From positions 1 to 64,000 of the IMG/VR virus record IMGVR_UViG_3300029906_000003: a DNA stretch of 64,000 nt. One strand, 5' to 3'. The DNA comes from a virus. Lineage: Duplodnaviria; Heunggongvirae; Uroviricota; Caudoviricetes. Shown one piece after another: positions 1,847 through 26,658 of the stretch (position 1 is the first letter of the stretch; the number at the start of each line of letters is the position of its first letter). The notes below the pieces were generated by a model. It did no database searches and was not told the origin of the DNA. It saw only the letters and a list, made by a program, of their open reading frames with translations. The translations under genes and the position numbers were made by a program.

Positions 1847-1867
1847 AGATAGAATCCTCACTTATAC

Positions 1868-2139
1868 TTAATAACTACATTCTTCATATCAGTCATATAC
1901 TTATATTCATCTTCACCAGTTACAATGATATAGAAATCACTTGGCTTACTGAAAGCTAAGACGGGAACAACCTCCCATCCCGTGATATAACCACTATAAA
2001 CATTCTCACCAGCCCCATTAGTTACCCACGCATACATATTAGTAAACGCTTCCGCCCTCTAACTCGCCAAAATACAAATTACTACAATAATAATTCCAAC
2101 AGTAAAACCAATCAAATATTTCTTAATCCCATCTCGCAT
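1868..2139 (-). CDS. hypothetical membrane-anchored protein with 1 in-frame TAG
   Basis: manual: MRDGIKKYLIGFTVGIIIVVICILAS[TAG]RAEAFTNMYAWV...KNVVIK, TAA stop; coherent only if TAG is read through. Confidence 0.4.
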
Positions 2140-2152
2140 ATATTATTTTCCT

Positions 2153-2383
2153 CTATTGTAAAAAATATCCAGTCATAATATCAGTAATAAGAAGATTTAT
2201 ACCTTTTACAATATTTATAATAATCCATGTAATAAGATAAGGGAACCAAAGAACACTATAAGCTATTACTCTTTCTTTCTCCAAGTCATCATTATCAAAG
2301 AAGACCAAAAACACAAGGAAACCTATTAACCCATAAGCGGAAAAACCTAATATAATAGTTGATATTATATAAAACCAATCCAT
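2153..2383 (-). CDS. small membrane protein; ORF ends at a TAG, so it may extend about 10 codons to TAA near 2123
   Basis: ORF track; two TM segments. Confidence 0.45.
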   Translation of the reverse strand: MDWFYIISTIILGFSAYGLIGFLVFLVFFDNDDLEKERVIAYSVLWFPYLITWIIINIVKGINLLITDIMTGYFLQ

Positions 2384-6366: not shown

Positions 6367-7149
6367 TTAATCATTCTCCTTAATTAATTTAGTTACTTTC
6401 TTATAATATTTATTAACAAAATCTTTCTGCGCTTCTTCATCTTCAAAATATGTCAGATGGCGCAAAGCAGATAGATTTTCATCATAATAAAGGAAAGTAT
6501 CCTTTAAAGACTCGTAAGTATAATCACAGTTCTTCAGAAGAGTATCAATCTTATATTCATCCCACTCTTCTTCTTTTGCTTCTTTGATTGCTTGGACAAC
6601 AAAATCGTTATAAGGGATAAAAATATCTCTAATATCTTCGTTTAAACCATGCACATAGTTATCAAGAAATTCCGCTTGGAGGATGGCGTTGACAGTACCT
6701 TTTATTGTACTTTTCTCCAAAAGACTCAAACCCATTTTAACAGAATGAGTAATTGTATTAATTGGATTCAAATAAACAAAAGTATCATACAAATAAGACT
6801 CGCAGAAGTCCCGCCGCCAATATTCAGTCGTGTTAAACCGAGTAAGCAATAGCTCAATGTCTTTGGGATAACCTTGCATTAGACCTTGCGTCCAGGTGCG
6901 GATGTCTTTAAGAACAACCTTCTCTCCATTCTCTAACTGAATCTCTTTATTTACTGGCCCCTTATGCCAGACCGTAAAGTCAAGAGAAGGAATAAATAGA
7001 GTCACGGTATCAACATCGCTTTTTGCAGTGTCGGTTTTATAGTTCTGGCTACCGTACAGATAGGTGCCAAAGTTCTTAGCTTTCGGCGACCACTTCTCCA
7101 ATTCTTTTAAAGCAATACTTTCGTGCGCGGCAAGTGCCTGTTCAATCAT
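6367..7149 (-). CDS. nucleotidyltransferase-fold protein (pol-beta superfamily)
   Basis: GS-x10-DVD motif (YLYGSQNYKTDTAKSDVD) near the N-terminus. Confidence 0.5.
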   Translation of the reverse strand: MIEQALAAHESIALKELEKWSPKAKNFGTYLYGSQNYKTDTAKSDVDTVTLFIPSLDFTVWHKGPVNKEIQLENGEKVVLKDIRTWTQGLMQGYPKDIELLLTRFNTTEYWRRDFCESYLYDTFVYLNPINTITHSVKMGLSLLEKSTIKGTVNAILQAEFLDNYVHGLNEDIRDIFIPYNDFVVQAIKEAKEEEWDEYKIDTLLKNCDYTYESLKDTFLYYDENLSALRHLTYFEDEEAQKDFVNKYYKKVTKLIKEND

Positions 7150-7417
7150 ATGGTATCTCCATTAACTCCAAATTATTAATTAAGAAAACTATGTTAGTAC
7201 CGTTCATTCCATGAGATGATATATTTGCAATTTTACCTTTTTCCATCTTTGCGAAAAGGTTTTTCACGACTGGCCGCGAAACATCACAATCTATACAAAC
7301 CTAAGTAACCACTAAATCTGTGCTTTTTTTCTTTCCACCATCAAAGTATTTATTCAATATATCTTTATACAGGCGACTTTCTTTTTTTGTGAGTGTGGAC
7401 GCAAACATTGCGCGGAG

Positions 7418-7846
7418 CTAATTCTCATCTTTGTCGGGGTCTCGTCCATTGAATTTGTCAATGACCTGCCGCGCGAACTTATAAATAATATTTAACGATT
7501 CTGTTTGCGATGAACTAGTCCATTCTTCTTTTGCTTTAAGGAAAGAATCTTTATATAAAGCATTTTTTAGCGTTGAAGAACTATTATTAAACAATAAATC
7601 AGCTCTTTGAAATGATTCGTGAGTTATGGCATCATCTAATGAATGTAACCCAAAATACTCTCGTATATCAACTACACACACTGAGCCTCTTTCCTTGGTT
7701 GATTTAGGAACTAGACAACTATACAAATCTTTTTCTTTAGGAAGAATTATTCCAAAAATGAGGTTGTTCTAAATTGAAACAACGGCTAGTAACTAATTCC
7801 CATACCATCTGAATAACTCATAGTAACACTCTTTGAGCCCATCCAT
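7418..7846 (-). CDS. hypothetical protein with 2 N-terminal in-frame TAG codons. The track ORF 7418-7726 ends at a TAG; read-through would extend to about 7283.
   Basis: Manual extension upstream through TAGs gives MDGLKECYYELFRWYGN[TAG]LLAVVSI[TAG]NNLIF.. in frame with the track ORF. The sequence downstream of the terminal TAG is protein-like (MFASTLTKKESRLYKDILNKYFDGGKKK). Confidence 0.4.
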
Positions 7847-8296: not shown

Positions 8297-11200
8297 ATGA
8301 CTAGCTTTTATGGAAGCGTGAATGGCGGCCAAGGGGGAAGCGGCGAAGGGGTTGATACTTCTACTCTAATGCAGAAGAATAACCCGACCTTCAATGGCAC
8401 TATCACTGGCCCCAATGCGCGCTTTACAGGAACTGTGCAGATTCCTGAACCAACAGAAGATAATCATGCAGCTACCAAAGGCTATGTCGATGCGGCCCTC
8501 GCTGATGTCGATTTAAGTGAAGTTACTACTAGAATGGACGCAATCGAAACCGCATAGGACGAGCTTGCCGCGCAGTTAGATGATAAAGTTGATGCGGAGA
8601 ATCCCGCATTTACTGGCACAGCTACTTTAGATGGAAAGAATATTGCAACTGTAGACTAGATTCCTAATATAAGTGATTTACCTTACCTAGATGAAAATAA
8701 TCCAACTTATACTGGGACTTTAACTGGCGAAAATGCGGCCTTCAGTGGAACCGTCACGGTTGCAACCCCTGCCGCAGAGGGCGAGGCCGCGAACAAAGGC
8801 TATGTGGATGCAGCCAAGACAGAACTTGAAGGAGATATTAATACTTTACAGCAGACTGTTGCAAATCAGGCTGAAACTATTAATACTCTTAATCAATAGG
8901 TAACTAATATAACAGGCGGAACAGTAGAGCTTCCTTATTTGAAGAATACTGGTGATAGCGGCACTGGCGTCTATGATTTCACGGGTGCAACTGTTAATGC
9001 GGCCGACCCAGTTGATAACAGCAATGTTGCAACTAAACACTATGTGGATTAGAAGGTTGCAAGCGCAGGTGGCACAGGTGAAGTCGTAAGCTATACTCAA
9101 GGCGATGGTATTTCTATCTCACCTGAAAATGAGATTAGCTTGTCTATTGATAGCGCGGGCGCCAATGGTTTGAAAGTTGGAGCTAATGGTCTAGGCTTAG
9201 ACCTTGCGACCGGTACAACATCAGGTGCCATGGCCGCATCAGATAAGACTGCTATTGCTTCAAATACGACTGAAATTACTAATATTAAAGATGGAACTAC
9301 TGAATTGCCATACTTAAAAGAGACTAACCCTACATATGAAGGCACTCTAATCGGTGGAGATGCGACTTTCACTGGGAGCGTCTAGATCTCAACTCCTGAC
9401 CAAGACAACGAGGCCGCGAACAAAAGCTATGTAGATACAGCTCTTGCAGAAGCTAAATCTTATACTGATAATGCAGTATCTGGAATTGCTTCTGATGAAA
9501 CAATTCAGCAAATTCAATCTGATATTGAAAATATTGAAAATGGAACTACAGTTCTTCCTTACTTGTCATCAGCTGGGGGAACAGTGACAGGTCCTATCAA
9601 GTATGGAACGAGTCCTAAAGATACGTCAGACTTGGCAAATAAAGCATATGTAGATGCTATCCATGTCCAAGCTGTCGCAGATGCTAAAAATTATACTGAT
9701 AGTGAAATTACTAATCTTGAGAATGGGACAACTGAATTACCTTATATTAAAAACAATGGAGATACTATAACAGGTAGCTATGATTTAACTGGGGCCGCAG
9801 TTACTATCGCTGAACCTGTATCTGATAATAGCCCCGCTACTAAGAAATATGTTGATGATTCTATTTCTGCTATTGATGTAAGTGAATAGATTGCGCCTTT
9901 AACTGGAAGAGTCGCTGCCGCGGAGGGTGAGATTGATACCCTGTAGATTGACGTTGAAGCTGTTGAGATTAGCGTGGCTAATATTACTAATGGGACAACT
10001 GAATTACCTTATGTAAAAGATTCTGGTGACACTGTTACTGGCACCTATAATTTTACGGGAGCTAATGTGACTATTGCCGAACCTACTGTCAGTAATAATC
10101 CTGCTACTAAGAATTACGTTGATACAAAGATAGCAAGCGCAGGCGGCTCTGGAGAAGTTGTGAGTTACACTTAGGGTAATGGTATTAATATTTCTCCTGA
10201 GAACATTATTTCTGTAGTCATTGCCGCAGATAATGCCAATGGTCTCGCTGTCGATACTAATGGTATCAAATTAAATGTGGCGACTTCTACAACAGCTGGT
10301 GCGATGAGTGGAGCTGATAAAGCTAAACTAGATGCTTCTTCTACTACTGAGCAGATGAATCAAGCTATTAGCAGTGCTATTGATGAAGCTCTTGAAGACC
10401 CGACCAAACTGCCTTTTGTAAACATTAATGGAGATACCATGCACGGTAGCCTTACTACCACTGAATTGTTTACTGATTTTGTCACTATTCGTAATGCAGG
10501 GACAGATGGTAAGACAGGTTTCCAGAATAATAGTGATACTGACCATATTAGAGTCTATGATAAAGTAGCCAACACTCTTGTTCCTATTGAAGTTGGAGAA
10601 CCTGTAAACAATCAAGATGCTTCAACCAAGAAATATGTTGACGATAAGGTTACTACTGAAACTGCTGCTAGAGCAGAAGCTATCGAAGACCTTAATGAAG
10701 CAAAAGCAGATAAGGACAATCCCACATTTACTGGCACTCTTTCAGGTGCAAACGCGACTCTTAGTGGCACATTAACTGGCAACACAGCAACCTTCTCAGG
10801 TGGAATTACTGTTCCTCTTGAGCCAGGAGCAGAAGGAAGTGCAACTTCTAAGAAGTATGTTGATGACCAGATTGCCGCCATAGATGTAAGCGAGCAGATT
10901 GAACCTTTAGCTCAAAGAGTTACTACAGCAGAAGGAGAAATTGATACTCTTCAAAGTAATATTGTCAACATCACTAATGGAACTACTGAGTTACCATATA
11001 TTGAAAAATCCAATGGCTCTTATACCGGACAGCTTTTTGGAGAAAACCTTGAGTTGTCTGGCAATATCAACGCAGCAAATGCTGAATTTACTGACAGTGT
11101 TACCGTACCAGTTACACCTATAAATGATGCGAATGCTGCGTCTAAAAAGTATGTAGATGAGAAGGTTGCTACTCTTCCCTATGTAACAAAAGAAGAGGTA

Positions 11201-14200
11201 GAAATTGCTGCTGATACTCGTGATGTAGCTAGAGCATATCGTTATACCTTCAATGATGGTCTTGACGGAACTAATTCTAATGCGGGCTTCGGCTTCATTG
11301 ACTACACTCCTGCTATTGTTACAGAGAAAGATGGAAGTACGGATTTCTCACCTTTGTATATTGGAGAGCCAGAAAAAGAGTCTCAAGCTGCTACTAAGAA
11401 GTATGTCGATGATACTATTGCGGCTGTTAATGCTCCTGAATATACTTTAGCTAAGCAGACCGCAGCAGAAGATGGATATTTCGCCACTTATTATCTGACC
11501 AAAGATAGTGTGCAAGTTGGCGAAAAGATTAATATCCCTAAAGACTACCTAGTTAAAGAAGCAGAATTGTTAGAAGTTGCGGTAACTGATACTCCTTATA
11601 GCGGAGCTGTGATTGGTGACAAGTACATTGACTTTACAATTAATACACAAGCCTCTGATGAAGATGAGCAGCATATCTACTTGCCCGTTAAGGACTTGGT
11701 TGATGTCTATACTGGCGGCAATGGTATAAACATTGACGCATCTAATATTGTAAGTGTTTAGATTGATGCGGCAAATAGTAATGGACTAGCTCTGGGTAGC
11801 GCAGGACTCAAATTAAATCTTGCGACCACGAGCGCCGCAGGAGCTATGAGTGCGGCAGATAAGACTAAATTAGATACTGCAATAAGCGAAGAACAATTAA
11901 CTGCGGTTGAGAATGAAGTTGATACTCTTCAAACAGAAGTAAATAATATTAAGAGCGGGACAACTGACCTTGGTTATTTGAAAGCAACTGACCCAAGTTA
12001 CACAGGAATTATGACTGGTGTCGATGCTACATTCAGTGGAAATGTAGTTGTTCCCGCACCTGATACAGATAATGAAGCTGCTAACAAGAGTTATGTTGAT
12101 ACCGCTATAAGTGGAGCTAAGACAGAGCTTGAAGGAGATATAAGCACTATTCAACAAACTGTTACCGCTGTGCAAGGAACTGTATCTGGTTTTGAGAGTG
12201 AAATTGAAACTCTTACACAAGCCGTAAATAATATTACTAATGGAACAACAGAACTTCCTTATATTAAGGATTCTGGAGATTCTGTTAGTGGTAATTATAG
12301 CTTCAATGGCACTGTTACTGATATTGCATCTCGTACTTCTAATCTTCAGCTTGCCAATTTAAATACTGCTCCTGACCAATGGATAGATGCTGAATATGCT
12401 AATATCAAATACAATTCTACAAATAAGAGAGTAGACTTCAGCCTCATGACCAATACTGGTCTTACTACTAATGGAGTTAAAGTCAGTGGTGCAGAGCCTG
12501 AAGGAACTAATGACTTTACTACTAAAAATTATGTAGATACTAAAGTAACAGACCTTCAGAATAACAAGCTGAATAAAAATAATCCTGCCTTTACTGGCAC
12601 TATTACAGGAGCCAATGCTAGCTTCGCTGGGACATTAACTGGCAATGCAGCAACATTTTCTGGCGGGGTTACTGTACCTCTTGAACCAGGCGAAGAAGGA
12701 AGTGCTACTTCTAAAAAGTATGTTGACAACCAGATTGCTTCTATTGATGTCAGTGAACAAATTGAGCCATTAACTCAAAGAGTCACCGCTGTAGAAGGAG
12801 AAGTTGATACCCTTCAATCTAATGTTGGAACTATTGAAACCAATATCACTAATATTACTAATGGGACAACAGAGCTTCCTTATGTTAAAAAAAGTGGAGA
12901 CACAGTAACTGGCTTGCTTACTCTTGAGCAAGGGGTAAAGAATGTCAACACAGATGACCCCTCTTATGAAACTAATCTAAGTTCTAATGGATTTACTTTT
13001 AAACATGATTCAACAGTAAAAATGCTTAGCCTTCAGGGCAACAAATTAAAATTCTCAGACGCAACTGCTCAAACTTTAGTTCCAGTTGAAGTAGGAACGC
13101 CTATTGAAGATAAAGACGCAGCTACTAAGGGATATGTAGATGAAAATACTTCTCCTTTGTATACGAAGTCTAGCTTTGGTGTAAATATATTTGGATAGCC
13201 CCTAGGCGAAGAAAGCCTAGGAGTTTTCGTAGATAATGTTAAGACTGAAAAGCCTTTATATGGATTAACTCTGTATGGAGACTCGTCTCAAGAACATTAC
13301 GAAGGATATAACTTATTAAATCCTGATAATATTACTGAGAATGTAGGATATAGTGATACTGGTACATCAGAGACTAAACAAGGCGTCTTCAGTATAAAGT
13401 TTGTATTTGAAGAAGGTCAGGATTATGCGTTTGTTCTTGCATGGGATATCAGTAAGAATTTTGAAGAATACTTGTCTCAATTAAATATATTCTATTATAA
13501 TGCTGGACAATCTTTTGTTAGGAAGGAAACCGTCTATTTGGGAAGCCGATATGAGCAATTATTCAATAGTTATACCAACTCTGCTCATTCTGGATATGTA
13601 TATATTGAATTGACTCCTAAAGAGAGTTTTACCCTTACAAAAGAATTTATTACGAATAACTTTATGATTCTTTTAATTGAAAACCGAGCTTTCCCTTTTG
13701 AACCTTATACAGGTAAAAATCCAGCTCCTTCTCTTATATATCCAACTGATATAACAGGTATAGAAGAGAATCCTGTATTATTTGATTATGGACAATTATA
13801 TACGCAAAATAACAGTGGCTCTTCTTCAATTGATTTTGAAAATTTAGGCAAGATACATTTGCCTACTATAACTTCTCCTTTGTATGGAGGTTATCTGGGA
13901 AATATGAGCACTTATAGCGAATCGCCCAATATTATTATGAATTCAATTGCTAGAGCTTCATTTGATAGTGCTACAATATGTAATAATGGTTTAGAAGACT
14001 GTATTTATTATATAGACAAACGTGATTATAAAAAGGGAAAGGATATTAGAGTATTTAAGACTTTAACTATTAATCCTACAGAAGTAAGCGATTACATTAC
14101 TGATGGCGGGGCTTTAGGAAATGGTCATAAGTTTATTCTTAATGTAAATGATAATGTTAAGTTTGAAAATTATAGTTTGAATGACTTAAATGAAAAAGAA

Positions 14201-16123
14201 GAAAAGCTTTTAGTGGTTGTTCCCGTGAATGGTTTTGTTGACTACAATGAAATTGATAGATGGCATCAAAGAATCTGGTGTAACTATTTACAATCTGCTG
14301 ATTTTGAATTTGTTAGTAACCTTGAAGAAGAAAATCCAGAACCAACTACTTCTTATGATACAATTTATTATGATTATGATATTCAAAAGGGTGACGACCC
14401 TTCTAATATAACAATCTCTTTGTCAAATATTGCCATTTATACTACTAGAGCAACAACAGTGGAAGAATTTGCGGCCTTTATTACGACTCCAATGCAAATT
14501 GTATACGCTTTGGATGAACCTGTTGAAACAGATATTCCAGAAGATGAATTACTTAACTTAGATAATATCCATATTAAGAATAATAGCTTATATACTATAC
14601 TGTCAGAAGATATAAACGAAGAGAATCTAAATAGTAATACCGTTAAGATTATTGACTTCGATATTACTTATTATAGAGTTCCTTCTTCCAATGGTGACAT
14701 ATATCCAATTGAAAATCTTAATACTCTGGAGCTCTTTAGCTATAAGGCATTGGCTACTTCCAGTGATAATTCAATAGAAATAAATAATATTAAAGATAAG
14801 CTGACTATTGCAAACCGTGCTGTTTTTATTGGCGATTCAATTTCTCAGGGATATGATAATGATGATTATAGTTTCGTTGATATTTTTAAAAAGAATGACG
14901 ATTTCTCTGGTGTTACTAAATTAGCTGTTGGAGGAGCTACATTAGGTCCTTATCAGATAGTTTCTGAAGCTTCTGGTTATAGTTGTCTTGAACAAATTCA
15001 AGCAAATGAATCTGCGATTTCAGGTGCCAATTTCTGCTTCTTACAGTTCTGCATTAATGATGTAAAATGCTTGGTTTCTAAGAATATCCAGATTGGAACT
15101 CCTTCTGAGACTAGTGCAATAACTACTGTTTGTGGCTATTTGAAGAAGTGTATTGAATTACTGTATACTTATAATCCTACTATTTCTATTGTATTTATTA
15201 ATCTCGCAACTAATGAGCCTGTAATTGATATGATATGGGACAATGAAGTAAATAGCGATGCTGATAAGTATAAATTCTATCATAAAGTTTGGAATCTCAG
15301 CATAGCAGAAGTTCTTGAACAGTATAATATTCCTATGATTAATATCTTTGATTGGACAAGTATAAATGCAAATAACTTTAGCAATTATACAGTTCATACA
15401 GCAGATGGTACTCATTTGAATACAGCTGGAAATACTCTTGCTTATTATCGTATTAAGAATGCTCTTTGGAATGAATCTGAGAAGTCTTATCCAACTCAGC
15501 CAAAGAATTTAATCATTGATGCAACATTAGGCGGAAATATTGGAGTAGAGAATATTGAAAGAATTAAAAACGCTTTTGACAATAATATTCAAGTCTTCTT
15601 CAATCTGAAAGAAAACGAAGATAGTACTGAAGATTTAATTGTCCCTGTTAATTTTAGTTCTGATGTTGGATATGGTTCTCATTTCACATTGGCTCAGGAT
15701 AGCAAATTGTATTTGTATGAATTATAGACAAATACCGTTGGCCAAATTACTTATACATCTTATAATATAACTGATATGAAGGCTAATATTGACATTGCTT
15801 TAGAGGCTGGAACAGAGAAGCTTGAAACTCTTAAGTCTTATTCTGGTGCTACTTATACAATAGATTCTATGAAGCCAAATACTTTGTACAACTTACGCAA
15901 TGTTGACTTACCAACTATTACTGTTACAGCTTTTGAGGCACCAAGTAGTACAGAATATGTTTCTACATATCATATGATTTTCCAGAGTAATGTTACTCCT
16001 GTAATTCTTAATCTGCCAAGTAGTGTTATTTATCCAGAAGATTTTACAATAGAAACTAAGCATATCTATGAAATTAATATCATGGATAATCTGTTAAGCT
16101 ATCAGAGCTGGCCTATGGAATAA
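8297..16123 (+). CDS. giant tail-fiber-like protein (about 2600 aa) with about 13 NGTTELPY-type repeats and a C-terminal SGNH/GDSL esterase domain. It contains at least 12 in-frame TAG codons.
   Basis: Track ORFs 8297-8557, 9140-9385, 9563-9889, 9974-10174, 10277-11761, 11846-13198, 13472-15727 and 15776-16123 are all in one frame and separated only by TAG. Repeats NITNGTTELPY[IV]K, ATKKYVD and AIDVSEQIEPL recur. GDSL motif AVFIGDSISQGY. RBS AAAGAGGTGA. Single gene 8297-15727 versus fusion with 15776-16123 is uncertain. Confidence 0.7.
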
Positions 16124-16134: not shown

Positions 16135-16859
16135 ATGAATAGTTTAACACGTCGTAGAGTCTTGAAAACGATAACGGGAGGGGGTATCAACTCCATAACT
16201 CGTAATATTTTAGTACAAGAGAAAGATTGCTTGTCAGGAGAAACTTTTGAAGAAAATATGGAATTCACTTCTGCTTATGGAAGTACAGTTGTTGTATATA
16301 TGGATTTTACTTTTACAAGAACTTATACTTCAATAAACAATATTATAGCTATGGGGCGTAATCCTAATACTTGGACAGATGACTCAATAAGACTCTTTGC
16401 TGATACAAACGACCAACTTCTTATTGTTCCTTTTATTAGTTCTGCCCAAACAAACTTCGACGCACCTCCTTTTACTGGGAAAAGAAATAAACTGATTTGT
16501 AAAATTGTTTACCCAACTAGGACAGAAAAAATTCAAACAACAAATATTATGGGTTAGACTCGTAAAATTTCTTATGCCAGTTACACTAATCCAACAGTTA
16601 CTGTCTGGTTAAATGGCCAAGCTGTTTGTACAAATTTTTCTATTTCTGGCAACGGAAGACAAGAGTGTTTAGAAACAGGCTGGTTTGCACAATTCTGGCA
16701 GATTGAAAGCGGATATACGGAAGGTAACTGGGATGCTATTATGGGAGTGAACACCATCTCAAACAAAGAAGGAACTAATAGATTCTATGGAACCTACCAT
16801 GAAATTAGCATAATACAACAAGACTTATCAGATGAAGAACTTTTGGCATTAACAATTTA
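16135..16859 (+). CDS. hypothetical virion-associated protein with 1 in-frame TAG
   Basis: track ORF 16135-16557 ends at TAG and the same frame stays open to TAA 16857-9. Confidence 0.5.
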
Positions 16860-16974
16860 ATGAAGGTAATGTCATGATTGAAGTTAGACGCAGACTCGCA
16901 AGTAATGGGGGGGTAAATAACATACTTCCTATAATTGCGGGATATAAAAGATTGATAAACTTATTAAAAAATAA

Positions 16975-20035: not shown

Positions 20036-20175
20036 AAGTTATTTCTCCTTTTGTTTTCTTATGTATAAATTATATCATAAAAAAGGAAAATAATCAATAA
20101 GCAATTTTATTTTTTAAACAATAGAAAAAAGAAAAAGAGACGCGGCAGCTCGTGCCTTACGTCTCTAGTTGCGTT

Positions 20176-20249
20176 GGAGCAGGATACCAGACTCGAACTG
20201 GCGCTGTATGATTGGAAGTCATAAATGCTACCACTACACCAATCCTGCA
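20176..20249 (-). tRNA. tRNA-Gly(UCC)
   Basis: cloverleaf folded by hand: acceptor GCAGGAT/ATCCTGC, anticodon stem TATGA/TCATA with loop CTTCCAA, T-loop TTCGAGT, U73, CCA encoded. Confidence 0.8.
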
Positions 20250-20254
20250 TATGT

Positions 20255-20328
20255 GGAGCCGCCACGAAGAATCGAACTCCGATACGCTCATTACAAGTGA
20301 GCAGTTCTACCGTTAAACTATGGCGGCA
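20255..20328 (-). tRNA. tRNA-Thr(UGU)
   Basis: acceptor GCCGCCA/TGGCGGC, anticodon stem GCTCA/TGAGC, loop CTTGTAA, T-loop TTCGATT. Confidence 0.85.
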
Positions 20329-20406
20329 TAATTACTAGAGACTAAAAATAAATGGAGGTTTTTTCAGAACCGATTTATAAAATAAAATTTGCTGTGAGTC
20401 TCTAAT

Positions 20407-20482
20407 GGAGCACATGGGAATCGAACCCATCTGACTTCTTCCTTGCAAGGGAAGCGAACACCCCATGCATTCCCGTACCCCA
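20407..20482 (-). tRNA. tRNA-Ala(UGC)
   Basis: acceptor GGGGTAC/GTGCTCC with G3:U70, anticodon stem CTTCC/GGAAG, loop CTTGCAA, T-arm ATGGG-TTCGATT-CCCAT; CCA not encoded. Confidence 0.7.
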
Positions 20483-20485
20483 TAT

Positions 20486-20561
20486 GGTTGCAACTCGGAG
20501 ACTTGAACTCCAATCCTTCGATTATCAGTCGAAAGTTTTAACCGGTTAAACTAAGTCGCAT
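20486..20561 (-). tRNA. tRNA-Ile(GAU)
   Basis: anticodon stem TTCGA/TCGAA, loop CTGATAA, T-loop TTCAAGT, CCA. Confidence 0.85.
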
Positions 20562-20636
20562 TATAAAAACTAGAGAGCTTCAAAAATAAATCCAAGTCTT
20601 GTTATTTGATACCTCTTGCTGTAACTCTCTAATGGT

Positions 20637-20725
20637 GGTGCGCCCTGGGGGAATCGAACCCTCACAATGCGATAGCGTCTGAAGATTAGAAGTCAACTGT
20701 TTTATCCAATTAAACTAAGAGCGCT
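20637..20725 (-). tRNA. tRNA-like, type II architecture, anticodon arm does not pair (probable pseudo-tRNA)
   Basis: good acceptor GCGCTCT/AGGGCGC, D-arm GTTT..AAAC and T-arm, but no pairing around ..GTTGACTTCTAATCTTCAG.. Confidence 0.3.
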
Positions 20726-20958
20726 TAAATATAATTGATGAAAGAATTATTTTTGAACAGTCTTACTAATTCTGCGCTATCTACATCATTCAATCGGTTA
20801 GCAAGTTTATTAAGAATCTTAACAGTGCTCTCATTGTAATCTCCTTTATTAAGGATCTTAATAATTTCATCTTTTGCCGCAGAACTGTCCATAATGTACA
20901 AATTTAAAAGATTATCACTTGTAATTTTAGGATAAATAGTCATTCTATTCCCCTTCAA
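20725..20958 (-). CDS. hypothetical small protein
   Basis: ORF track. Confidence 0.4.
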   Translation of the reverse strand: MKGNRMTIYPKITSDNLLNLYIMDSSAAKDEIIKILNKGDYNESTVKILNKLANRLNDVDSAELVRLFKNNSFINYI

Positions 20959-21028
20959 GGCATAATATATTATTTTTTATTTTTCCAGAATAATAATTAA
21001 AAATTGCTGTATATGCCTTCATGGCTGA

Positions 21029-21664
21029 TTATAAATATCTCCATTCATATCCGTAAGCAGTTTTTCTTTTCCCTCTACAAGCAGCAGATATATGACTAAT
21101 GACTCCATTTATTTTTGAAAAAGTAATTCCTTCTTCGATTAAATATCTTGCAGCATCACTCATAGATAAGAATGTTCTTACGGGTAAATTATTTTTATAA
21201 GCAATAACTTTTTTAGAGCAGATTTCTTTCTGAAAAGAGTTATCTTTTATTCTAGGAACTCCTCTCGATTCTAAAATATTATATACTGAATCTACACAAA
21301 TATTCAAAGTATCTGCTACTTTTACACAGTTGTGTAAATTTTGATAAGTTTCAACAACTAAATCATAATCAATATATTTCTTTCCATCTCCTCCTAAAGT
21401 TGCATTATACCCGTTATGGTAAGAACCATAATATTGAATCCAATATCGCTCTCTCTCTTCTGAATTATCTGTTTCTTCAATCAGCTCAATATGGAAATGT
21501 TCTGGTCCATATTTATTCATTGCTGCATATAAAGGGCGCTTTTCGCATTTTTCTCTTTTATAGTCACAAAGATGCTCTTTAAATCTTGATTGAATACTCT
21601 ATTCTGTTTTTCCAATATAGATTTTCTAATTAATGTCGTTTGTAATTTTGTAGATGTATGCCAT
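21029..21664 (-). CDS. GIY-YIG homing endonuclease (I-TevI-like) with 2 in-frame TAG codons inside the GIY-YIG motif
   Basis: Track ORF 21029-21520 extended upstream gives MAYIYKITNDIN[TAG]KIYIGKTE[TAG]SIQSRFKEH. The ERERYWIQYYGS..NGYNATLGG region and the C-terminal ..AYGYEWRYL match I-TevI family. RBS AAGGAG. Confidence 0.75.
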
Positions 21665-21756
21665 ACTTAAATAGCTCCTTTCTATATGGTTCATTCTGTT
21701 AAAATAATAAAATATTTTTATCCAGGCGCACCACGTGGAGGAAAACCTTTGCGCCC

Positions 21757-21852
21757 TCGAGGCGGTGGGATTCGAACCCACATACTAGGGGTCAGAGCCC
21801 TAGGCTGTGAATGTTTTAGAGACATTTGCTGAACCAATTTAGCTACGCCTCG
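21757..21852 (-). tRNA. suppressor tRNA, anticodon CUA (reads UAG), long variable arm (type II), A73
   Basis: acceptor CGAGGCG/CGCCTCG, D-stem GCT/AGC, anticodon stem AATGT/ACATT with loop CTCTAAA (CUA at 34-36), variable arm hairpin CTAGGG-CTCTGAC-CCCTAG, T-arm GTGGG-TTCGAAT-CCCAC; CCA not encoded. Confidence 0.7.
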
Positions 21853-21991
21853 TTACGATACGAGAGGCAATTTACTTATGGTAATACAATCTTTTTTCCT
21901 TGTACTTTATCGCATATATTTGCTGTCTGTCTCTCTTTGTATTTATATTATATCATAATTTTAATTTTATGTCAATAGAATTTTTTAAATA

Positions 21992-22183
21992 TTAAAGAAC
22001 TCCGCGCCGATGAAGTTCATGGCAAATGATATTATACCTTGAAACAATAGCAGAGAAATTAATATACTTGGCTTTTACAGACTCTTCAATTACATTCCAC
22101 AGTTTATCTCGTTCTCTCATTAAACGTTCAGTCGAAAGCTCATTAGGAAAATGAGTCTCAACATTGTACATCTTTTCGTTCAT
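21992..22183 (-). CDS. hypothetical small protein
   Basis: ORF track. Confidence 0.4.
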   Translation of the reverse strand: MNEKMYNVETHFPNELSTERLMRERDKLWNVIEESVKAKYINFSAIVSRYNIICHELHRRGVL

Positions 22184-22216
22184 GCGGCCTCAGTCCTTTC
22201 TTTACAGTATTGAGTA

Positions 22217-22292
22217 TGGTCGGAACGGCGAGACTCGGACTCGCTGCATCCAGATCCCAAATCTGGCATTCTACCAGTTGAATTACGTCCCG
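22217..22292 (-). tRNA. tRNA-Pro(UGG)
   Basis: anticodon stem CCAGA/TCTGG, loop TTTGGGA, D-arm ATTC..GAAT, CCA. Confidence 0.85.
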
Positions 22293-22312
22293 TTTTAGAC
22301 GGCTCCTGCCGC

Positions 22313-22484
22313 ATTATCTTCGCTGTAGGAACCAAATATCTCTCTTCCTTTGTCTCTTGATATTATCTATTTCTTTAGATAAACTACTTATTTTATTTTC
22401 TATTCTTACAATATCTGAAATGATAATTGGAGGATTATTTATAGATTCTAATTCTACTATTTTATCATCTAATTGTTCATACAT
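22313..22484 (-). CDS. hypothetical small coiled-coil protein (56 aa)
   Basis: manual ORF MYEQLDDKIVELESINNPP... Confidence 0.3.
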
Positions 22485-22511
22485 AGTATCACCTGCTCTT
22501 TATCATTCATA

Positions 22512-22587
22512 TGGGCAGAAGGAAGAGAATTGAACTCTTACTATCAAATCCACAATTTGAGGTGCTAACCATTACACTACCAACTGC
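22512..22587 (-). tRNA. tRNA-His(GUG)
   Basis: extra G-1 opposite C73, anticodon stem TCAAA/TTTGA, loop TTGTGGA; two U-U mismatches in the acceptor stem. Confidence 0.7.
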
Positions 22588-22603
22588 ATATTATATTTTT
22601 TAG

Positions 22604-22679
22604 TGGTGCGCTCGGAGAGATTTGAACTCTCGACCAACGGATTAAAGGTCCGCGACTCTTCCAGCTGAGTTACGAGCGC
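22604..22679 (-). tRNA. tRNA-Lys(UUU)
   Basis: acceptor GCGCTCG/CGAGCGC, anticodon loop CCTTTAA (unusual C33), T-loop TTCAAAT, CCA. Confidence 0.75.
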
Positions 22680-22694
22680 ATAGAAAAGAGAAGA

Positions 22695-23231
22695 TTAGCT
22701 CTTCTCTGTTTGATTTAGAATAATTTTAAATATATCTTCCGCTGTTTTAATAGTCTTACTAGCTTTTTCTACTTCCTGAGCGGTTTTTGCTTTCATATCT
22801 TTAAGAAATTCTGCTTGAACCGCGCATTGTTTATCTCTTTCCTCTTGTTCTTTTTTGTCCTTGAAATATTTATCTACTTTGTCGTAGTCTATTGCGGTCT
22901 TTAATTTAATATATTCGTAATTTGGTTCTGAAGAACTCAGATATACACTTATATTAGTATATTGTTGTTTTTTCTTCTTTTCAAATTCTTCATATGACTT
23001 ATCTGAAATATAAATTAAATATTTATGGCCAGGAGTTCTTTTTAAAAGAAAATTTTTAGGATAAAGCTCATGGAATAGAATATATTGGTTTGCTGTTAAT
23101 TCTATACAAGATGCCGAACTAGGAGGACTCATAAATTCATGTATAGCGGATATTTTTGCTAATTTATCAACAATAAAAGCAGTAGCAAAAAACGTACAGA
23201 GAAAAATTAGAACAACTAACATTTTAACCAT
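22695..23231 (-). CDS. hypothetical membrane-anchored protein
   Basis: ORF track; N-terminal TM helix. Confidence 0.55.
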   Translation of the reverse strand: MVKMLVVLIFLCTFFATAFIVDKLAKISAIHEFMSPPSSASCIELTANQYILFHELYPKNFLLKRTPGHKYLIYISDKSYEEFEKKKKQQYTNISVYLSSSEPNYEYIKLKTAIDYDKVDKYFKDKKEQEERDKQCAVQAEFLKDMKAKTAQEVEKASKTIKTAEDIFKIILNQTEKS

Positions 23232-23248
23232 ATATTACCTTCCTTTTG

Positions 23249-23322
23249 TGGAGCACACGGTTGGAGTCGAACCAACTTTCACAGATTTGCAGCCTGCTAT
23301 CTAGCCGTCTGATTCCGTGCGC
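23249..23322 (-). tRNA. tRNA-Cys(GCA)
   Basis: anticodon stem GCAGG/TCTGT (two G-U pairs), loop CTGCAAA, T-loop TTCGACT, U73, CCA. Confidence 0.7.
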
Positions 23323-23617
23323 ATATAAATACTCCCCAATATTTTGTAGTCCGTATCAGACTATTATCCGAATTGTTCTCCTTGGGGAAGGCAAACTCCT
23401 TGAGATTTGCTCAAGTATAGCCAACTATTAATATAGTTGTCAAATAATAAAGCAGGTGTGCTATTACGCTAAAAAATATTATTTTTACCTATTGGCACTT
23501 CATTATTTTATAGGACATTATTTCATGTAGCCTATTATATAATTTTTTGCACCTAATAGAATAATATTTACTCATTATAGGATAGCTGCTTCTAAGCTTA
23601 CCTTCCTGCTTTGCATA

Positions 23618-23709
23618 TGGCGCCGGTTAGAAGATTCGAACTTCTGGAGGGGAATTTCCCCTCAAGGGTTTAGCAAACCCCTGCACTCGACCAACTATGC
23701 GAAACCGGC
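23618..23709 (-). tRNA. tRNA-Ser(GCU)
   Basis: type II: acceptor GCCGGTT/AACCGGC, anticodon loop TTGCTAA, long variable arm GAGGGG-AAATT-CCCCTC, G73, CCA. Confidence 0.85.
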
Positions 23710-23723
23710 AAAAAAAAACAAGA

Positions 23724-23799
23724 CAGTATGTATATACTAATGCGTTACCATTACGCTATATTCGCTATTAATGGCGCGAACATTCGGATTTGAACCGAA
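23724..23799 (-). other. permuted or fragmented tRNA-like element: a 3' half (T-arm, acceptor 3' strand, CCA) lies 6 nt upstream of a matching 5' half (acceptor, D-arm, hairpin)
   Basis: sense order TTCGG-TTCAAAT-CCGAA TGTTCGC G CCA ttaata GCGAATA TA GCGT-AATGGTA-ACGC ...; the two acceptor strands are complementary. Confidence 0.3.
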
Positions 23800-23869
23800 A
23801 ATACTTAGTTCCCTAAGAATTTTGCTGTTACTGTCTTTATTTATATAAAACTATCAAGATACCTTTTTA

Positions 23870-23938
23870 AAACTGGGACTCGAACCCAGACCCTTTTGAT
23901 TATCAGTCAAATGCTCTAACCAGTTGAGCTATTAAGCG
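23870..23938 (-). tRNA. tRNA-Ile(GAU)-like pseudogene (acceptor strands do not pair)
   Basis: D-arm GCTC-AACTGGTTA-GAGC, anticodon arm TTTGA-CTGATAA-TCAAA and T-arm CTGGG-TTCGAGT-CCCAG are good, but the 3' acceptor TTTTAAA does not pair with the 5' side. Confidence 0.3.
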
Positions 23939-24056
23939 CGAGGTGCGCTCAAAAGTGTTTGCTGTAAGTATCTTTAATTGCGGATGGGATTAACCAATAT
24001 ATTTCTGCAAAATTAGTTAAAACAGACTCACCACGTGAAGGTTTTTGCATGAGTCC

Positions 24057-24142
24057 CGGGCGGGGTGGGATTCGAACCCACGGAGGCGTGAACCTCAACG
24101 GTTTTCAAGACCGTCTCAATAATCCAGCTCTGACACCCGCCC
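24057..24142 (-). tRNA. tRNA-Ser(UGA)
   Basis: acceptor GGGCGGG/CCCGCCC, anticodon stem ACGGT/ACCGT, loop CTTGAAA, long variable arm, G73. Confidence 0.85.
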
Positions 24143-24150
24143 AAAATAAT

Positions 24151-24297
24151 GGGGAAATTCACCCCTTGGCCGCATTCATCTGCCGCTTAGCCTTACGAAC
24201 AAGATTCTTATTACTTACCTGCTTTTTACCATTACTTACTGTATCACGATAGTTCAAACGGTTAATACGATTCTGAAAATGTTCAACAGTCTTATTC
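24151..24297 (-). CDS. small basic (Lys/Arg-rich) protein (48 aa)
   Basis: manual ORF MNKTVEHFQNRINRLNYRD...; RBS GGAGGG. Confidence 0.3.
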
Positions 24298-24305
24298 ATA
24301 TTATT

Positions 24306-24524
24306 TTAGCCCTCCAACATTGTCCAAAGAGTTACTTTATAACCAAATTGTGAATCTTCAATTAAAGGAACAATAGCAACAATATCTTTGCTTGCCAAAT
24401 TATTTGCCTTATAAAAAGTGATAAAACTTTCAATAACATTTTTCATAGCCGCCTTTTTGCTTGGATGCGGCCCATCCTCAAAAGTTCTAATTCTCATTTT
24501 CTGTAATAATGTTTTTCCCACCAC
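24306..24524 (-). CDS. hypothetical small protein
   Basis: ORF track. Confidence 0.45.
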   Translation of the reverse strand: MVGKTLLQKMRIRTFEDGPHPSKKAAMKNVIESFITFYKANNLASKDIVAIVPLIEDSQFGYKVTLWTMLEG

Positions 24525-24607
24525 TTCAAATAATCTTTAAGGGTTCCCTGGTTCTTCAAATGCGGCGATGGCGTTCCAAAAATTTTTAATTGCATTCCGA
24601 CGACACC

Positions 24608-24970: not shown

Positions 24971-25090
24971 TAAGCAATCCTCCTACTCTTTTAACAAGAC
25001 AGTTTTTAATAATCACTTATATGATTCAAATTCATATGTTTATATTATAAAAACATTTGCTGTAACTGTCTTTCTTTTGTTTATATGCTT

Positions 25091-25286: not shown

Positions 25287-25294
25287 ATAATTAA

Positions 25295-26642: not shown

Positions 26643-26658
26643 TAAGGAATTTTATCTA

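What the first reader, a model, noticed from the sequence alone, without database searches (positions are those of the whole stretch)
8297..16123. TAG (amber) is a sense codon in at least 13 genes, while TAA and TGA still terminate
Across the window, adjacent same-frame ORFs separated only by TAG reconstruct coherent proteins of known families. The cases are the giant fiber (at least 12 TAG), GIY-YIG endonuclease 21029-21664 (2, inside the GIY-YIG motif), sigma factor 28758-29585 (1), lambda-like phosphatase 40537-41331 (1), M15 endolysin 44455-45119 (2), coiled-coil GIY-YIG 53287-54237 (13), Sak4-like gene (1), RecJ 61299-63062 (2), 16135-16859 (1), 1868-2139 (1), 7418-7846 (2 or more), 30830-31114 (1) and 44130-44451 (3). 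Unambiguous stops at gene ends are TAA or TGA, often as ATGA or TAATG overlaps, for example at 36712, 58666, 42272 and 43100. Inside the fiber, near-identical paralogous repeats place TAG opposite Gln three times (YTQGDGISISPEN versus YT*GNGINISPEN, and AIDVSEQIEPL..GEIDTLQ versus AIDVSE*IAPL..GEIDTL*). Other alignments place it opposite Thr, Ala or Val. TAG therefore most likely encodes Gln, but that is not proven. Replication genes (topoisomerase, ligase, DnaB, primase, PurA-like) carry no TAG, whereas structural, lysis, endonuclease and sigma genes do, which is consistent with a regulated recoding switch.
Basis: partly seen in the sequence, partly recalled or inferred. Interest (0 to 1): 0.9.

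Follow-up and report, generated by a model that had tools for sequence, protein, structure and literature searches.

The report
Phage reads TAG as glutamine
This 64-kb piece of a roughly 140-kb uncultured phage reads the stop codon TAG as an amino acid, almost certainly glutamine; this recoding is already known in phages, but the phage's own TAG-reading tRNA carries an unusual extra arm that looks like a glutamine anticodon loop.

Summary
With only TAA and TGA as stops the window gives a 2,608-codon fibre gene. I count 43 in-frame TAG in 15 of 64 called genes. Pfam domains and orthologues run straight through the TAGs, and 20 TAG positions are conserved in diverged relatives. Every line of comparison points to glutamine: TAG swaps with CAG or CAA in orthologues, fibre repeats place Gln opposite TAG, and one TAG falls on an almost invariant Gln of the peptidoglycan-binding domain.

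A tRNA with anticodon CUA lies at 21757-21852(-), and ARAGORN miscalls it as Phe(AAA).

This is the known "code 15" recoding of phages (Ivanova 2014, Borges 2022, Peters 2022), and public gene-calling pipelines already translate this genome that way. The phage is therefore a new member of a known kind.

The suppressor tRNA itself is unexpected. It has an extra arm whose loop, CUCUGAC, copies a tRNA-Gln(CUG) anticodon loop. In IMG/VR, long-armed CUA suppressors carry (C/U)UGA in that arm in 15 of 17 cases, and long-armed UCA suppressors carry CCAA, the Trp anticodon, in 32 of 33 cases. I found no description of this pattern. The "regulated switch" idea has statistical support only.

The parts
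21757..21852 (-). Amber-suppressor tRNA, anticodon CUA, 96 nt. It has an extra arm in the variable region (stem CUAGGG/CCCUAG, loop CUCUGAC), C1-G72, A73, and no encoded CCA.
   Evidence: Rfam tRNA model gives 56.7 bits, with anticodon loop CUCUAAA and a 25-nt insert in the variable region. The MFE fold is a cloverleaf plus an extra hairpin. ARAGORN miscalls it Phe(aaa). Relatives have CUA tRNAs in the same slot between tRNA-Pro/His and tRNA-Arg(UCU).
8297..16123 (+). Giant tail-fibre-like gene of 2,608 codons with 11 in-frame TAG. It has N-terminal repeats and a C-terminal GDSL/SGNH lipase-like domain.
   Evidence: A public pipeline already called it as one 2,608-residue product with PF13472. 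Its paralogous repeats place Gln opposite TAG at residues 531, 550 and 626.
53287..54237 (+). Coiled-coil plus GIY-YIG endonuclease, 11 in-frame TAG. TAG makes up 11 of its 23 Gln-family codons, the strongest enrichment in the window.
44455..45117 (+). Endolysin (Peptidase_M15_3 plus PG_binding_1), 2 TAG. The second TAG sits on the conserved Gln of the PG-binding motif.
44130..44444 (+). Small gene of unknown function upstream of the endolysin, 3 TAG. Two of them are conserved as TAG in relative L001 and all three in L002/L003.
28758..29585 (-). Sigma-70-family factor with 1 TAG at codon 205, between regions 3 and 4.
   Evidence: The same codon is CAG in L014/L015 and CAA in L017.
40537..41331 (+). 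Calcineurin-like (lambda-type) phosphoesterase, 1 TAG.
   Evidence: The codon is CAA in L001, L014 and L017.
61299..63062 (+). RecJ-like DHH exonuclease, 2 TAG.
55981..56352 (+). N-terminal part of a Sak4-like (AAA_24) gene, 2 TAG. The C-terminal part is at 57428-58075, and a LAGLIDADG ORF (56488-57348) lies between them.
21029..21664 (-). GIY-YIG homing-endonuclease-like gene directly downstream of the suppressor tRNA, 2 TAG.
7142..7846 (-). Gene of unknown function, 4 TAG, all conserved as TAG in relative L011.
16135..16860 (+). Gene downstream of the fibre, 1 TAG.
30830..31114 (-). Small gene, 1 TAG, which is CAA in L001.
1858..2139 (-). Small membrane-protein-like gene, 1 TAG. No diverged relative was available.
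2123..2383 (-). Small membrane-protein-like gene with a TAG 10 codons before its TAA. Whether this TAG is a sense codon or the real end is undecided.
20175..30584 (-). tRNA array of 26 tRNA or tRNA-like genes. It includes the ordinary tRNA-Gln(UUG) at 27494-27569 and the suppressor.

Best explanation
The window comes from a roughly 140-kb tailed phage that decodes UAG as glutamine (NCBI translation table 15), while UAA and UGA remain stops.

Shown here:
- In-frame TAG lies inside conserved genes.
- TAG positions are conserved as TAG, or replaced by CAG/CAA, in relatives.
- The phage carries its own tRNA with anticodon CUA in its tRNA array.

Inferred: during infection this tRNA is made, given its CCA end, and charged with Gln by a host enzyme. 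That enzyme would be GlnRS, or GluRS followed by GatCAB. The charged tRNA outcompetes release factor 1 at UAG, so the 15 or more TAG-containing genes (fibre, endolysin, endonucleases, sigma factor, RecJ and others) are made full-length.

TAG accounts for only 8% of Gln-family codons. It is absent from the core replication genes, which fits selection against TAG in genes needed before the suppressor has accumulated (the Borges et al. model). Individual TAGs otherwise behave like CAG-to-TAG drift.

The suppressor belongs to a recurrent class of phage suppressors. Their variable arm displays a copy of the anticodon loop of the tRNA whose amino acid they insert. I infer that this arm helps keep Gln identity despite the changed anticodon.
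For: TAG is sense:
- Searches give the ORF structure: 43 TAG in 15 genes, with stops TAA 50 and TGA 13.
- Searches show domains spanning the TAGs.
- Searches show 20 TAG=TAG positions in relatives.
- One search shows identical sequence in independent assemblies.

TAG means Gln:
- The PG_binding_1 column is Q in 110 of 112 homologues and Q in 4 of 4 PDB homologues.
- In orthologues of at least 50% identity with at least 60% local identity, the partner codon is CAA 5 times, CAG 3 times, AAA 2, GAG 1 and ACT 1. Single-base TAG/CAG swaps include fibre residue 550, fibre residue 867 (the TAG here is in L012) and sigma residue 205.
- The fibre's paralogous repeats give Q at three sites.
- A summed BLOSUM62 score over 21 observations gives Q 37, K 20 and E 16.

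The decoder:
- tRNA(CUA) at 21757-21852(-).
- Relatives L012, L014 and L017 carry, in the same slot, a 75-76-nt CUA tRNA with tRNA-Gln hallmarks (U1-A72, G73, loop CUCUAAC) and compensatory acceptor-stem changes.

The extra arm:
- It has a 6-bp stem and the loop CUCUGAC.
- In unbiased IMG/VR scans, 15 of 17 long CUA tRNAs carry (C/U)UGA in that arm and 32 of 33 long UCA tRNAs carry CCAA. The cross terms are 0 of 33 and 1 of 17, Fisher p about 6e-11.
- RNAalifold predicts the extra helix, with compensatory changes at all three of its pairs.

External support:
- Code 15 in phages was proven by metaproteomics (PMC9523058).
- 28 of 29 phage tRNA(CUA) inserted Gln in E. coli extract (PMC12636597).
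- A public pipeline already translated this genome through TAG as Q.
Against: - There are no protein-level data for this phage.
- The window's own suppressor lacks the acceptor-end marks of tRNA-Gln: it has C1-G72 and A73 and no encoded CCA. What charges it is therefore unknown.
- Some TAG sites align with Lys (100 of 120 homologues at the first endolysin site; AAA partners), Thr or Val.
- About 61 kb of the genome could not be read, so other suppressors, a release factor or a synthetase may exist.
- Suppression efficiency is unknown.
- The host is unknown. If it lacks GlnRS, the charging route would have to go through GluRS and GatCAB, whose U1-A72 requirement (my recollection of the literature, not a tool result) this tRNA does not meet.
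Confidence: 0.9

Rival explanations
1. TAG is sense but encodes another amino acid. Candidates are Lys (as with the B. subtilis sup-3 suppressor, from my own knowledge), or Ser/Leu/Tyr as the long variable arm might suggest. Alternatively it is decoded ambiguously.
For: - The first endolysin TAG aligns with Lys in 100 of 120 homologues.
- AAA is the partner codon at two well-aligned orthologous sites, and more often in the coiled coil.
- The suppressor has a long extra arm, G2-C71, A3-U70 and C11-G24, which recall E. coli tRNA-Ser identity elements (sequence; the identity rules are from my own knowledge).
Against: - Q beats K by 17 half-bits over 21 observations, and Ser scores about 2.
- All three sites with 13 of 14 identical flanking residues have Gln partners.
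- The PG-binding column is Gln in 110 of 112 homologues.
- No TCN, AGY, TTR or TAY partner occurs at a well-aligned site.
- Other class I tRNAs of this phage clade (Glu, Arg, Ile) also carry extra arms, so the arm does not mark a class II identity.
- The arm's loop is a Gln, not a Ser, anticodon look-alike.
Confidence: 0.05
2. TAG is still mainly a stop. The phage relies on low-level, regulated read-through, so most product is truncated and only a fraction is full-length. On this view recoding is a dosage or timing device rather than a true reassignment.
For: - TAG is rare, at 8% of Gln-family codons, and unevenly spread.
- No release-factor gene or anti-RF1 function was seen in the 79 kb examined.
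- Borges et al. propose a timing role.
Against: - The fibre needs 11 successive read-throughs, and so does the coiled-coil endonuclease. At low efficiency essentially no full-length protein would result.
- No called gene uses TAG as its only stop.
- TAG sits at structurally essential positions, for example inside the M15 and GIY-YIG domains.
Confidence: 0.1
3. The TAGs are real stops in decayed or split genes, or they are sequencing or assembly errors.
For: None beyond the bare presence of in-frame TAG.
Against: - Only TAG interrupts genes, never TAA or TGA.
- Twenty TAGs are conserved in diverged relatives.
- Sequence after each TAG stays conserved at the protein level.
- The sequence is identical in independent assemblies.
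- A cognate tRNA(CUA) is present.
Confidence: 0.01
4. TAG encodes pyrrolysine, which is how ARAGORN labels CUA tRNAs.
For: ARAGORN prints 'tRNA-Pyl' for the CUA tRNAs of relatives. This label follows from the anticodon alone.
Against: - No PylS or PylBCD domain appears in the gene tables for the roughly 79 kb examined.
- The tRNA has G18G19, a T-loop UUCGAAU and a 5-bp anticodon stem, unlike tRNA-Pyl (tRNA-Pyl features are from my own knowledge).
- Alignments point to Gln.
Confidence: 0.01

Closest known systems
TAG-to-Gln ('genetic code 15') phages. These include crAss-like phages, Lak phages and the gemstone clades of Borges et al. (bioRxiv 10.1101/2021.08.26.457843, later Nat Microbiol 2022), with proteomic proof in Peters et al. 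2022 (PMC9523058).
   Same: - In-frame TAG in structural, lysis and some other genes, while TAA and TGA are kept as stops.
- A phage-encoded tRNA(CUA).
- A low-GC genome (35.5%).
- TAG avoided in part of the replication machinery.
- No dedicated synthetase seen.
- The roughly 140-kb genome size is within the range Borges et al. give for their larger gemstone clades (201 +/- 22 and 154 +/- 27 kb).
   Different: - Clade membership was not tested, because no terminase lies in the window.
- There is no close relative in GenBank phages: best protein identity is 34-40% and there is no megablast hit.
- TAG use is light, at 8% of Gln-family codons.
- TAG-containing genes are scattered rather than forming one block.
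Phassvirus / phAss-1 (Babkin et al. 2023, PMC10607447).
   Same: A gut phage of about 136 kb with a large tRNA set (36), three tRNA-Sup(CTA) genes, TAG in 28% of ORFs, and no synthetase found.
   Different: No detectable nucleotide similarity to any phage record. Relatedness to phAss-1 was not tested at the protein level. Only one suppressor was seen in the 79 kb examined here.
Classical amber suppressors that insert Gln: E. coli supE (tRNA-Gln CUA) and the tRNA-Trp-derived su7 (from my own knowledge). Also the phage tRNA(CUA) tested in E. coli extract (PMC12636597).
   Same: A CUA anticodon with Gln insertion. In PMC12636597, 28 of 29 phage tRNA(CUA) inserted Gln.
   Different: Those are ordinary 75-77-nt class I tRNAs. 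The window's tRNA is 96 nt with a second, anticodon-like arm and a non-Gln acceptor end. PMC12636597 marked predicted suppressors longer than 100 nt as low confidence and does not describe such arms in the passages I read.
T4 SegB, a GIY-YIG homing endonuclease inside the T4 tRNA gene cluster (PMC2330249).
   Same: A GIY-YIG gene sits next to the suppressor tRNA in the window and in L011. The tRNA slot holds three unrelated CUA tRNAs in phages that are otherwise 87-94% identical.
   Different: Endonuclease activity and tRNA-gene replacement are inferred here, not shown.

Membership tests
Phage with TAG reassigned to Gln (translation table 15) | In-frame TAG inside genes whose homology continues on both sides | tested here: met
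   Pfam domains span the TAGs in 6 genes. Orthologues continue past TAG in 13 of 15 genes.
Phage with TAG reassigned to Gln (translation table 15) | TAA and TGA still terminate, and TAG is not needed as a stop | tested here: met
   Stops are TAA 50 and TGA 13. All 49 TAG-free genes end at TAA or TGA. Making TGA or TAA a sense codon gives no coherent long ORFs.
Phage with TAG reassigned to Gln (translation table 15) | TAG aligns preferentially with Gln | tested here: met
Phage with TAG reassigned to Gln (translation table 15) | Phage-encoded tRNA with anticodon CUA | tested here: met
   21757-21852(-). Syntenic CUA tRNAs occur in 4 relatives.
Phage with TAG reassigned to Gln (translation table 15) | Gln found at UAG positions in the proteins | not testable with these tools
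   This needs LC-MS/MS.
Phage with TAG reassigned to Gln (translation table 15) | Recoded codons concentrated in late (structural and lysis) genes and avoided in early genes | tested here: inconclusive
   Topoisomerase, ligase, DnaB and primase have 0 TAG among 98 Gln-family codons (P about 3e-4). The fibre, endolysin and endonucleases are TAG-rich. RecJ, Sak4 and the helicase also carry TAG. Expression timing is unknown.
Bacterial tRNA-Gln identity (for the window's suppressor) | Weak 1:72 pair (U1-A72), G73, and G2-C71/G3-C70 | tested here: not met
   The window tRNA has C1-G72, A73 and A3-U70; only G2-C71 fits. The suppressors of L012, L014, L017, L019, L020 and L023 do have U1-A72 and G73.
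Class II tRNA (Ser/Leu/Tyr) identity for the suppressor | A long variable arm starting 1-2 nt after the anticodon stem, plus G73 (Ser) or an isotype-specific D-loop or anticodon | tested here: not met
   The arm is flanked by 6-nt and 3-nt linkers and the discriminator is A73. The alignments exclude Ser, Leu and Tyr. Class I tRNAs of the clade (Glu, Arg, Ile) carry similar inserted arms.
Pyrrolysine system | pylS and pylBCD genes, and tRNA-Pyl architecture | tested here: not met
   No such domains appear in the 79 kb examined. The tRNA has canonical D and T loops.
Long-armed phage stop-codon suppressors with an anticodon-loop look-alike arm (a class defined here) | A canonical cloverleaf with a stop anticodon, plus a hairpin in the variable region whose loop carries the anticodon and A37 of the inserted amino acid's tRNA | tested here: met
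   The window tRNA has the loop CUCUGAC on a 6-bp stem. Class statistics are, and the consensus fold.

The most novel reading that the evidence does not exclude
The extra arm of the window's suppressor tRNA is a functional copy of the tRNA-Gln(CUG) anticodon loop. It would let a tRNA whose real anticodon is CUA keep being recognised as tRNA-Gln. GlnRS and TrpRS both read the anticodon (my own knowledge), so a suppressor that changes its anticodon risks losing its identity.

Two forms of this are possible:
- The enzyme contacts the arm directly.
- The tRNA switches between two folds. In fold A the stop-anticodon hairpin is the anticodon arm and the look-alike is the variable arm. In fold B the look-alike is the anticodon arm and the stop-anticodon hairpin bulges out after nucleotide 26.

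The same design recurs in unrelated large phages for both known reassignments: Gln look-alikes in UAG suppressors and Trp look-alikes in UGA suppressors. If this is real and undescribed, it is a general answer to the question Borges et al. left open, namely how recoding phages get suppressors charged without bringing a synthetase.
Probability: 0.3. Interest if true: 0.8.

Novelty: new member of a known kind. Interest (0 to 1): 0.42.

Why it matters
The recoding itself matters for practical reasons. Under the standard code this genome's fibre, endolysin, sigma factor and several nucleases are shredded into fragments. Any annotation, host-range or lysin-mining effort must therefore use table 15. 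The window adds an abundant, uncultured clade of roughly 140-kb phages to the list of TAG-to-Gln users. Hundreds of related contigs of 130-146 kb appear in public metagenomes.

The more interesting point is mechanistic. The phage's decoder belongs to a class of two-armed suppressor tRNAs whose second arm mirrors the anticodon loop of the amino acid being inserted. That gives a concrete, testable handle on how phages impose a new codon meaning on an unmodified host. It also suggests a possible design principle for engineered suppressors that stay good substrates for anticodon-reading synthetases.

Tried and rejected
Searches that found nothing:
- Megablast of the replication block and of the fibre against 50,697 phage records gave no hit.
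- The search for related loci with the RecJ protein gave no confirmed relative in IMG/VR.
- An exact 24-mer of the suppressor was not found in IMG/VR, and a degenerate pattern was not found in JGI metagenomes.
- PHROGs gave no family for seven of the TAG-containing or adjacent small genes.
- Rfam gave no group I intron in the gap that splits the Sak4-like gene.

Ideas tested and dropped:
- Parentage of the suppressor from pairwise identity to the phage's other tRNAs was inconclusive. The top scores were Ser(UGA), Glu(UUC), Trp and Val, for trivial reasons such as a shared T arm or shared arm length.
- The idea that the long arm marks a Ser/Leu/Tyr-type suppressor, so that TAG means Ser, Leu or Tyr, was considered and rejected on alignment evidence. 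Glu, Arg and Ile tRNAs of the clade also have inserted arms.
- The idea that the sigma-factor TAG is a conserved timing device was weakened, because it is CAG or CAA in close relatives.
- Q residues in database proteins of close relatives cannot count as independent evidence. P0001's Q residues at those positions are TAG in its DNA.

Limits of reach:
- The remaining 61 kb or so of the genome could not be reached, because look-ups are limited to window proteins and homologue hits.
- Whether the more distant relatives L013 and L018 use the standard code could not be settled. They have no TAG in 500 and 1,274 aligned codons, and no CUA tRNA was found.

Full report
WHAT THE WINDOW IS. The 64-kb window (35.5% G+C) is phage DNA. 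It holds:
- a 26-member tRNA array on the minus strand;
- a giant fibre gene;
- a lysis cassette;
- a replication and recombination block: topoisomerase II subunits, NAD-ligase, ThyX, a Sak4-like gene, DnaB, primase, RecJ and a helicase.

Identical sequence occurs in at least seven contigs from different samples and assemblers. One of these is a 140,382-bp contig that is circularly permuted relative to the window, so the genome is about 140 kb. No GenBank phage is close: megablast gives no hit and the best protein identities are 34-40%. Public metagenomes nevertheless hold a large family of 130-146-kb relatives.

Under the standard code the longest ORF is 843 aa. With TAG as sense there is one frame of 2,610 codons at 8294-16123(+), containing 11 TAG. 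Making TGA a sense codon gives no such gain.

I called 64 genes using ribosome-binding sites and neighbouring genes. Fifteen of them contain 43 in-frame TAG. All genes end in TAA (50) or TGA (13), apart from one that runs off the window.

Pfam domains cross the TAGs in both GIY-YIG genes, the sigma factor, the phosphoesterase, the M15 endolysin and RecJ. The sigma factor matches SigA as a single stretch over residues 8-274.

In diverged relatives (L001, L002, L011, L012, L014, L017; 77-95% DNA identity where alignable), 20 TAG codons sit at the same aligned positions. This excludes sequencing error and pseudogenes.

Just outside the window, the helicase (1 TAG), a GIY-YIG gene (1) and a GIY-YIG/HTH gene (7) continue the pattern, while the 842-codon Pol III alpha gene has none.

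WHICH AMINO ACID. A caution first: proteins of close relatives in the big protein database were already translated with TAG as Q. P0001 has Q where its DNA (L001) has TAG. Those Q residues are not evidence, so I used codons and distant homologues.

(i) The second endolysin TAG falls on the F-Q motif of PG_binding_1. The column is Q in 110 of 112 homologues and in all four solved structures that align there.

(ii) In orthologue comparisons at well-aligned sites, the partner codon is CAA 5 times, CAG 3 times, AAA 2, GAG 1 and ACT 1. The three sites with 13 of 14 identical flanking residues are all Gln. They include single-base TAG/CAG swaps in both directions. The sigma TAG is CAG in a 94%-identical orthologue and CAA in a 91%-identical one.

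(iii) Within the fibre, the best-matching paralogous repeats put Q opposite TAG at residues 531, 550 and 626. They put T, V, V and A opposite four others.

(iv) A crude BLOSUM62 sum over these 21 observations gives Q 37, K 20 and E 16, with Ser, Leu and Tyr far behind.

Gln is therefore strongly favoured. Lys is the only rival worth naming.

THE DECODER. ARAGORN lists no CUA tRNA, but it calls an odd 96-nt 'tRNA-Phe(aaa)' at 21757-21852(-). The Rfam tRNA model (56.7 bits) and the minimum-energy fold both give a normal cloverleaf. Its anticodon stem is AAUGU/ACAUU and its loop is CUCUAAA, so the anticodon is CUA, with U33 and A37. A 25-nt insert in the variable region forms a 6-bp hairpin.

The phage also has an ordinary tRNA-Gln(UUG). 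Rfam adds two further tRNAs that ARAGORN missed: a tRNA-Cys and a partial Ile-like tRNA.

In four relatives a CUA tRNA occupies the same slot, upstream of tRNA-Arg(UCU).
- L012, L014 and L017 share a 75-76-nt type with U1-A72, G73, loop CUCUAAC and compensatory acceptor-stem changes. It looks like a G36A derivative of tRNA-Gln(CUG).
- L011 and the window each have a different, unrelated sequence.

GIY-YIG endonuclease genes flank the slot in the window and in L011. This recalls SegB in the T4 tRNA cluster (PMC2330249) and suggests cassette replacement. That is an inference.

THE EXTRA ARM. The window tRNA's acceptor end (C1-G72, A73, no CCA) is not Gln-like. No parent tRNA could be identified. 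However, the loop of its extra arm, CUCUGAC, is exactly a tRNA-Gln(CUG) anticodon loop.

A first pattern search that fixed both loops found the same architecture in 148-402-kb IMG/VR contigs. Those copies have Gln-like acceptor stems and covarying extra-arm stems.

To remove that bias I then scanned only for the anticodon loop CTCTAAA, a gap of 30-45 nt and the T loop, and kept the hits that ARAGORN accepts as tRNA(cta) of at least 86 nt.
- 17 distinct tRNAs resulted.
- 15 carry (C/U)UGA in the variable region.
- 13 carry it in a loop closed by at least 3 bp, against 0.4 expected from shuffles (maximum 5 in 1,000). One search gives similar figures when the window and L020/21 are included.
- RNAalifold on ten of them predicts the fifth helix, with compensatory changes at all three pairs and a conserved 7-nt loop.

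As a control I ran the same scan for opal suppressors with the loop CTTCAAA.
- 33 distinct long tRNA(UCA) resulted, mostly starting with A1 (26 of 33) and often with acceptor ends such as AGGGGCU...AGCCCCU-G that resemble E. coli tRNA-Trp, as I recall it.
- 32 carry CCAA, mostly within CUCCAAA or GUCCAAA; CUCCAAA is the tRNA-Trp(CCA) anticodon loop.
- None carries YUGA.
- Only 1 of the 17 CUA tRNAs carries CCAA. Fisher p is about 6e-11 in both directions.

The extra arm therefore mirrors the anticodon loop of the amino acid assigned to the stop codon: Gln for UAG and Trp for UGA. For the window, this is a third, independent pointer to Gln.

Both GlnRS and TrpRS depend on the anticodon (established knowledge). 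From this I infer that the arm preserves identity, either by direct contact or through an alternative fold in which it takes the anticodon-arm position. Neither is shown.

I found no paper describing this pattern. A jumbo-phage survey mentions 'intronic sequences' in tRNAs of alternatively coded phages, which may be the same objects as seen by tRNAscan-SE (PMC13037316).

Other class I tRNAs of this clade also carry inserted arms whose loops are not anticodon-like. The arm of tRNA-Glu shows clear covariation.

IS THERE A SWITCH? TAG is 8% of Gln-family codons overall.
- The two topoisomerase subunits, the ligase, DnaB and primase together have 98 CAA or CAG codons and no TAG. The probability of this is 0.92^98, about 3e-4.
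- The coiled-coil GIY-YIG gene (11 of 23) and gene 7142-7846 (4 of 7) are significantly enriched.
- Homing-endonuclease genes are the richest class.

This matches the pattern Borges et al. describe: structural and lysis genes recoded, replication genes variable. But RecJ, Sak4 and the helicase also carry TAG. The holin-like genes carry none. The sigma TAG is not conserved. No release factor, synthetase or amidotransferase gene was seen in the window plus about 7 kb on each side. A YqeY (GatB-tail-like) protein does sit beside the tRNA array. The switch remains a reasonable but untested reading.

COMPARISON AND VERDICT. This is translation table 15 in a phage. The phenomenon was predicted in 2014 (Ivanova et al., from my own knowledge). 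It was surveyed by Borges et al., proven by metaproteomics (PMC9523058), and described for a similar 136-kb gut phage (PMC10607447). Current pipelines handle it automatically, and they had already called this very fibre as a 2,608-residue protein.

The finding as written is therefore correct but not new. It is a new member of a known kind. What may be new is the architecture of its suppressor tRNA and the look-alike rule that it exemplifies.

Noticed in passing
window 25918-26506 (-); also L011 1000-1574, L012 2406-2981, L018 13214-13802: A full-length ROOL RNA (Rfam RF03087, 303 bits) sits in the middle of the phage tRNA array. It is conserved at the same place in relatives.
   Followed up: partly
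window 17006-18535 (-) and 19088-19525 (-): A Ro-like/TROVE RNA-binding protein (DUF2828 plus DUF7788) and a YqeY (GatB-tail-like) protein lie just downstream of the tRNA array. Both are conserved in all relatives examined. The YqeY fold is related to the tRNA-binding tail of GatB (my own knowledge), so a role in handling phage tRNAs is conceivable.
   Followed up: partly
window 27824-27916 (-) tRNA-Glu(UUC); 20636-20724 (-) tRNA-Arg(UCU); L018 9078-9171 tRNA-Ile(UAU): Class I tRNAs of this phage clade carry inserted hairpins in the variable region. The tRNA-Glu arm is conserved across relatives, with compensatory changes in 4 of 5 pairs (CAGUA/UACUG versus UAACA/UGUUA). Its loop (GUGA) is not anticodon-like.
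   Followed up: partly
IMG/VR loci L220-L332 (for example L250, L263, L271): 33 distinct long tRNA(UCA) opal suppressors, mostly starting with A1. In 32 of them the extra arm carries CCAA, usually as CUCCAAA (the tRNA-Trp anticodon loop) or GUCCAAA.
   Followed up: yes
window 21757-21852 versus L011 6461-6534, L012 6525-6600, L014 18084-18158, L017 16985-17059: The same genomic slot holds three unrelated CUA tRNAs in phages whose flanking genes are 87-99% identical. GIY-YIG endonuclease genes adjoin the slot in the window and in L011, which suggests cassette replacement by homing.
   Followed up: partly
window 55981-58075 (+): The Sak4-like (AAA_24) gene is split. The N-terminal part is 55981-56352, the C-terminal part is 57428-58075, and a LAGLIDADG endonuclease ORF (56488-57348) lies between them in another frame. 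Rfam finds no group I intron there, so whether this is an intron or a true gene split is undecided.
   Followed up: partly
window 63145-64000 (+), continuing to about 65157 in L004: The RecD/UvrD-like helicase appears to carry an intein inside its P-loop. The sequence reads GPAGTGK, then A...(about 290 aa)...VTHN, then TTVV. This was judged by eye only. The gene also has one in-frame TAG beyond the window.
   Followed up: no
window 23252-23322 (-) and 23871-23933 (-): Rfam finds two tRNA-like genes that ARAGORN misses. One is a tRNA-Cys(GCA). The other is an Ile(GAU)-like element that matches only model positions 6-65, so it has no proper acceptor stem.
   Followed up: partly
window 21029-21664, 53287-54237; L004 15046-15810, 18545-19378 (window-equivalent 65233-69565): Homing-endonuclease-type genes (GIY-YIG) are numerous, at least four in 79 kb. 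As a class they are the most TAG-rich genes, with 2, 11, 1 and 7 TAG.
   Followed up: partly
protein database entries P0001, P0241-P0246; loci L004, L008: The public protein collection already holds this phage's proteins translated with TAG as Q. Q residues in near relatives are therefore circular evidence for the codon's meaning unless the DNA is checked.
   Followed up: yes
L012 3753-3966: A group I intron (Rfam RF00028, 51.5 bits) lies within the tRNA array of a relative. No counterpart was detected in the window.
   Followed up: no
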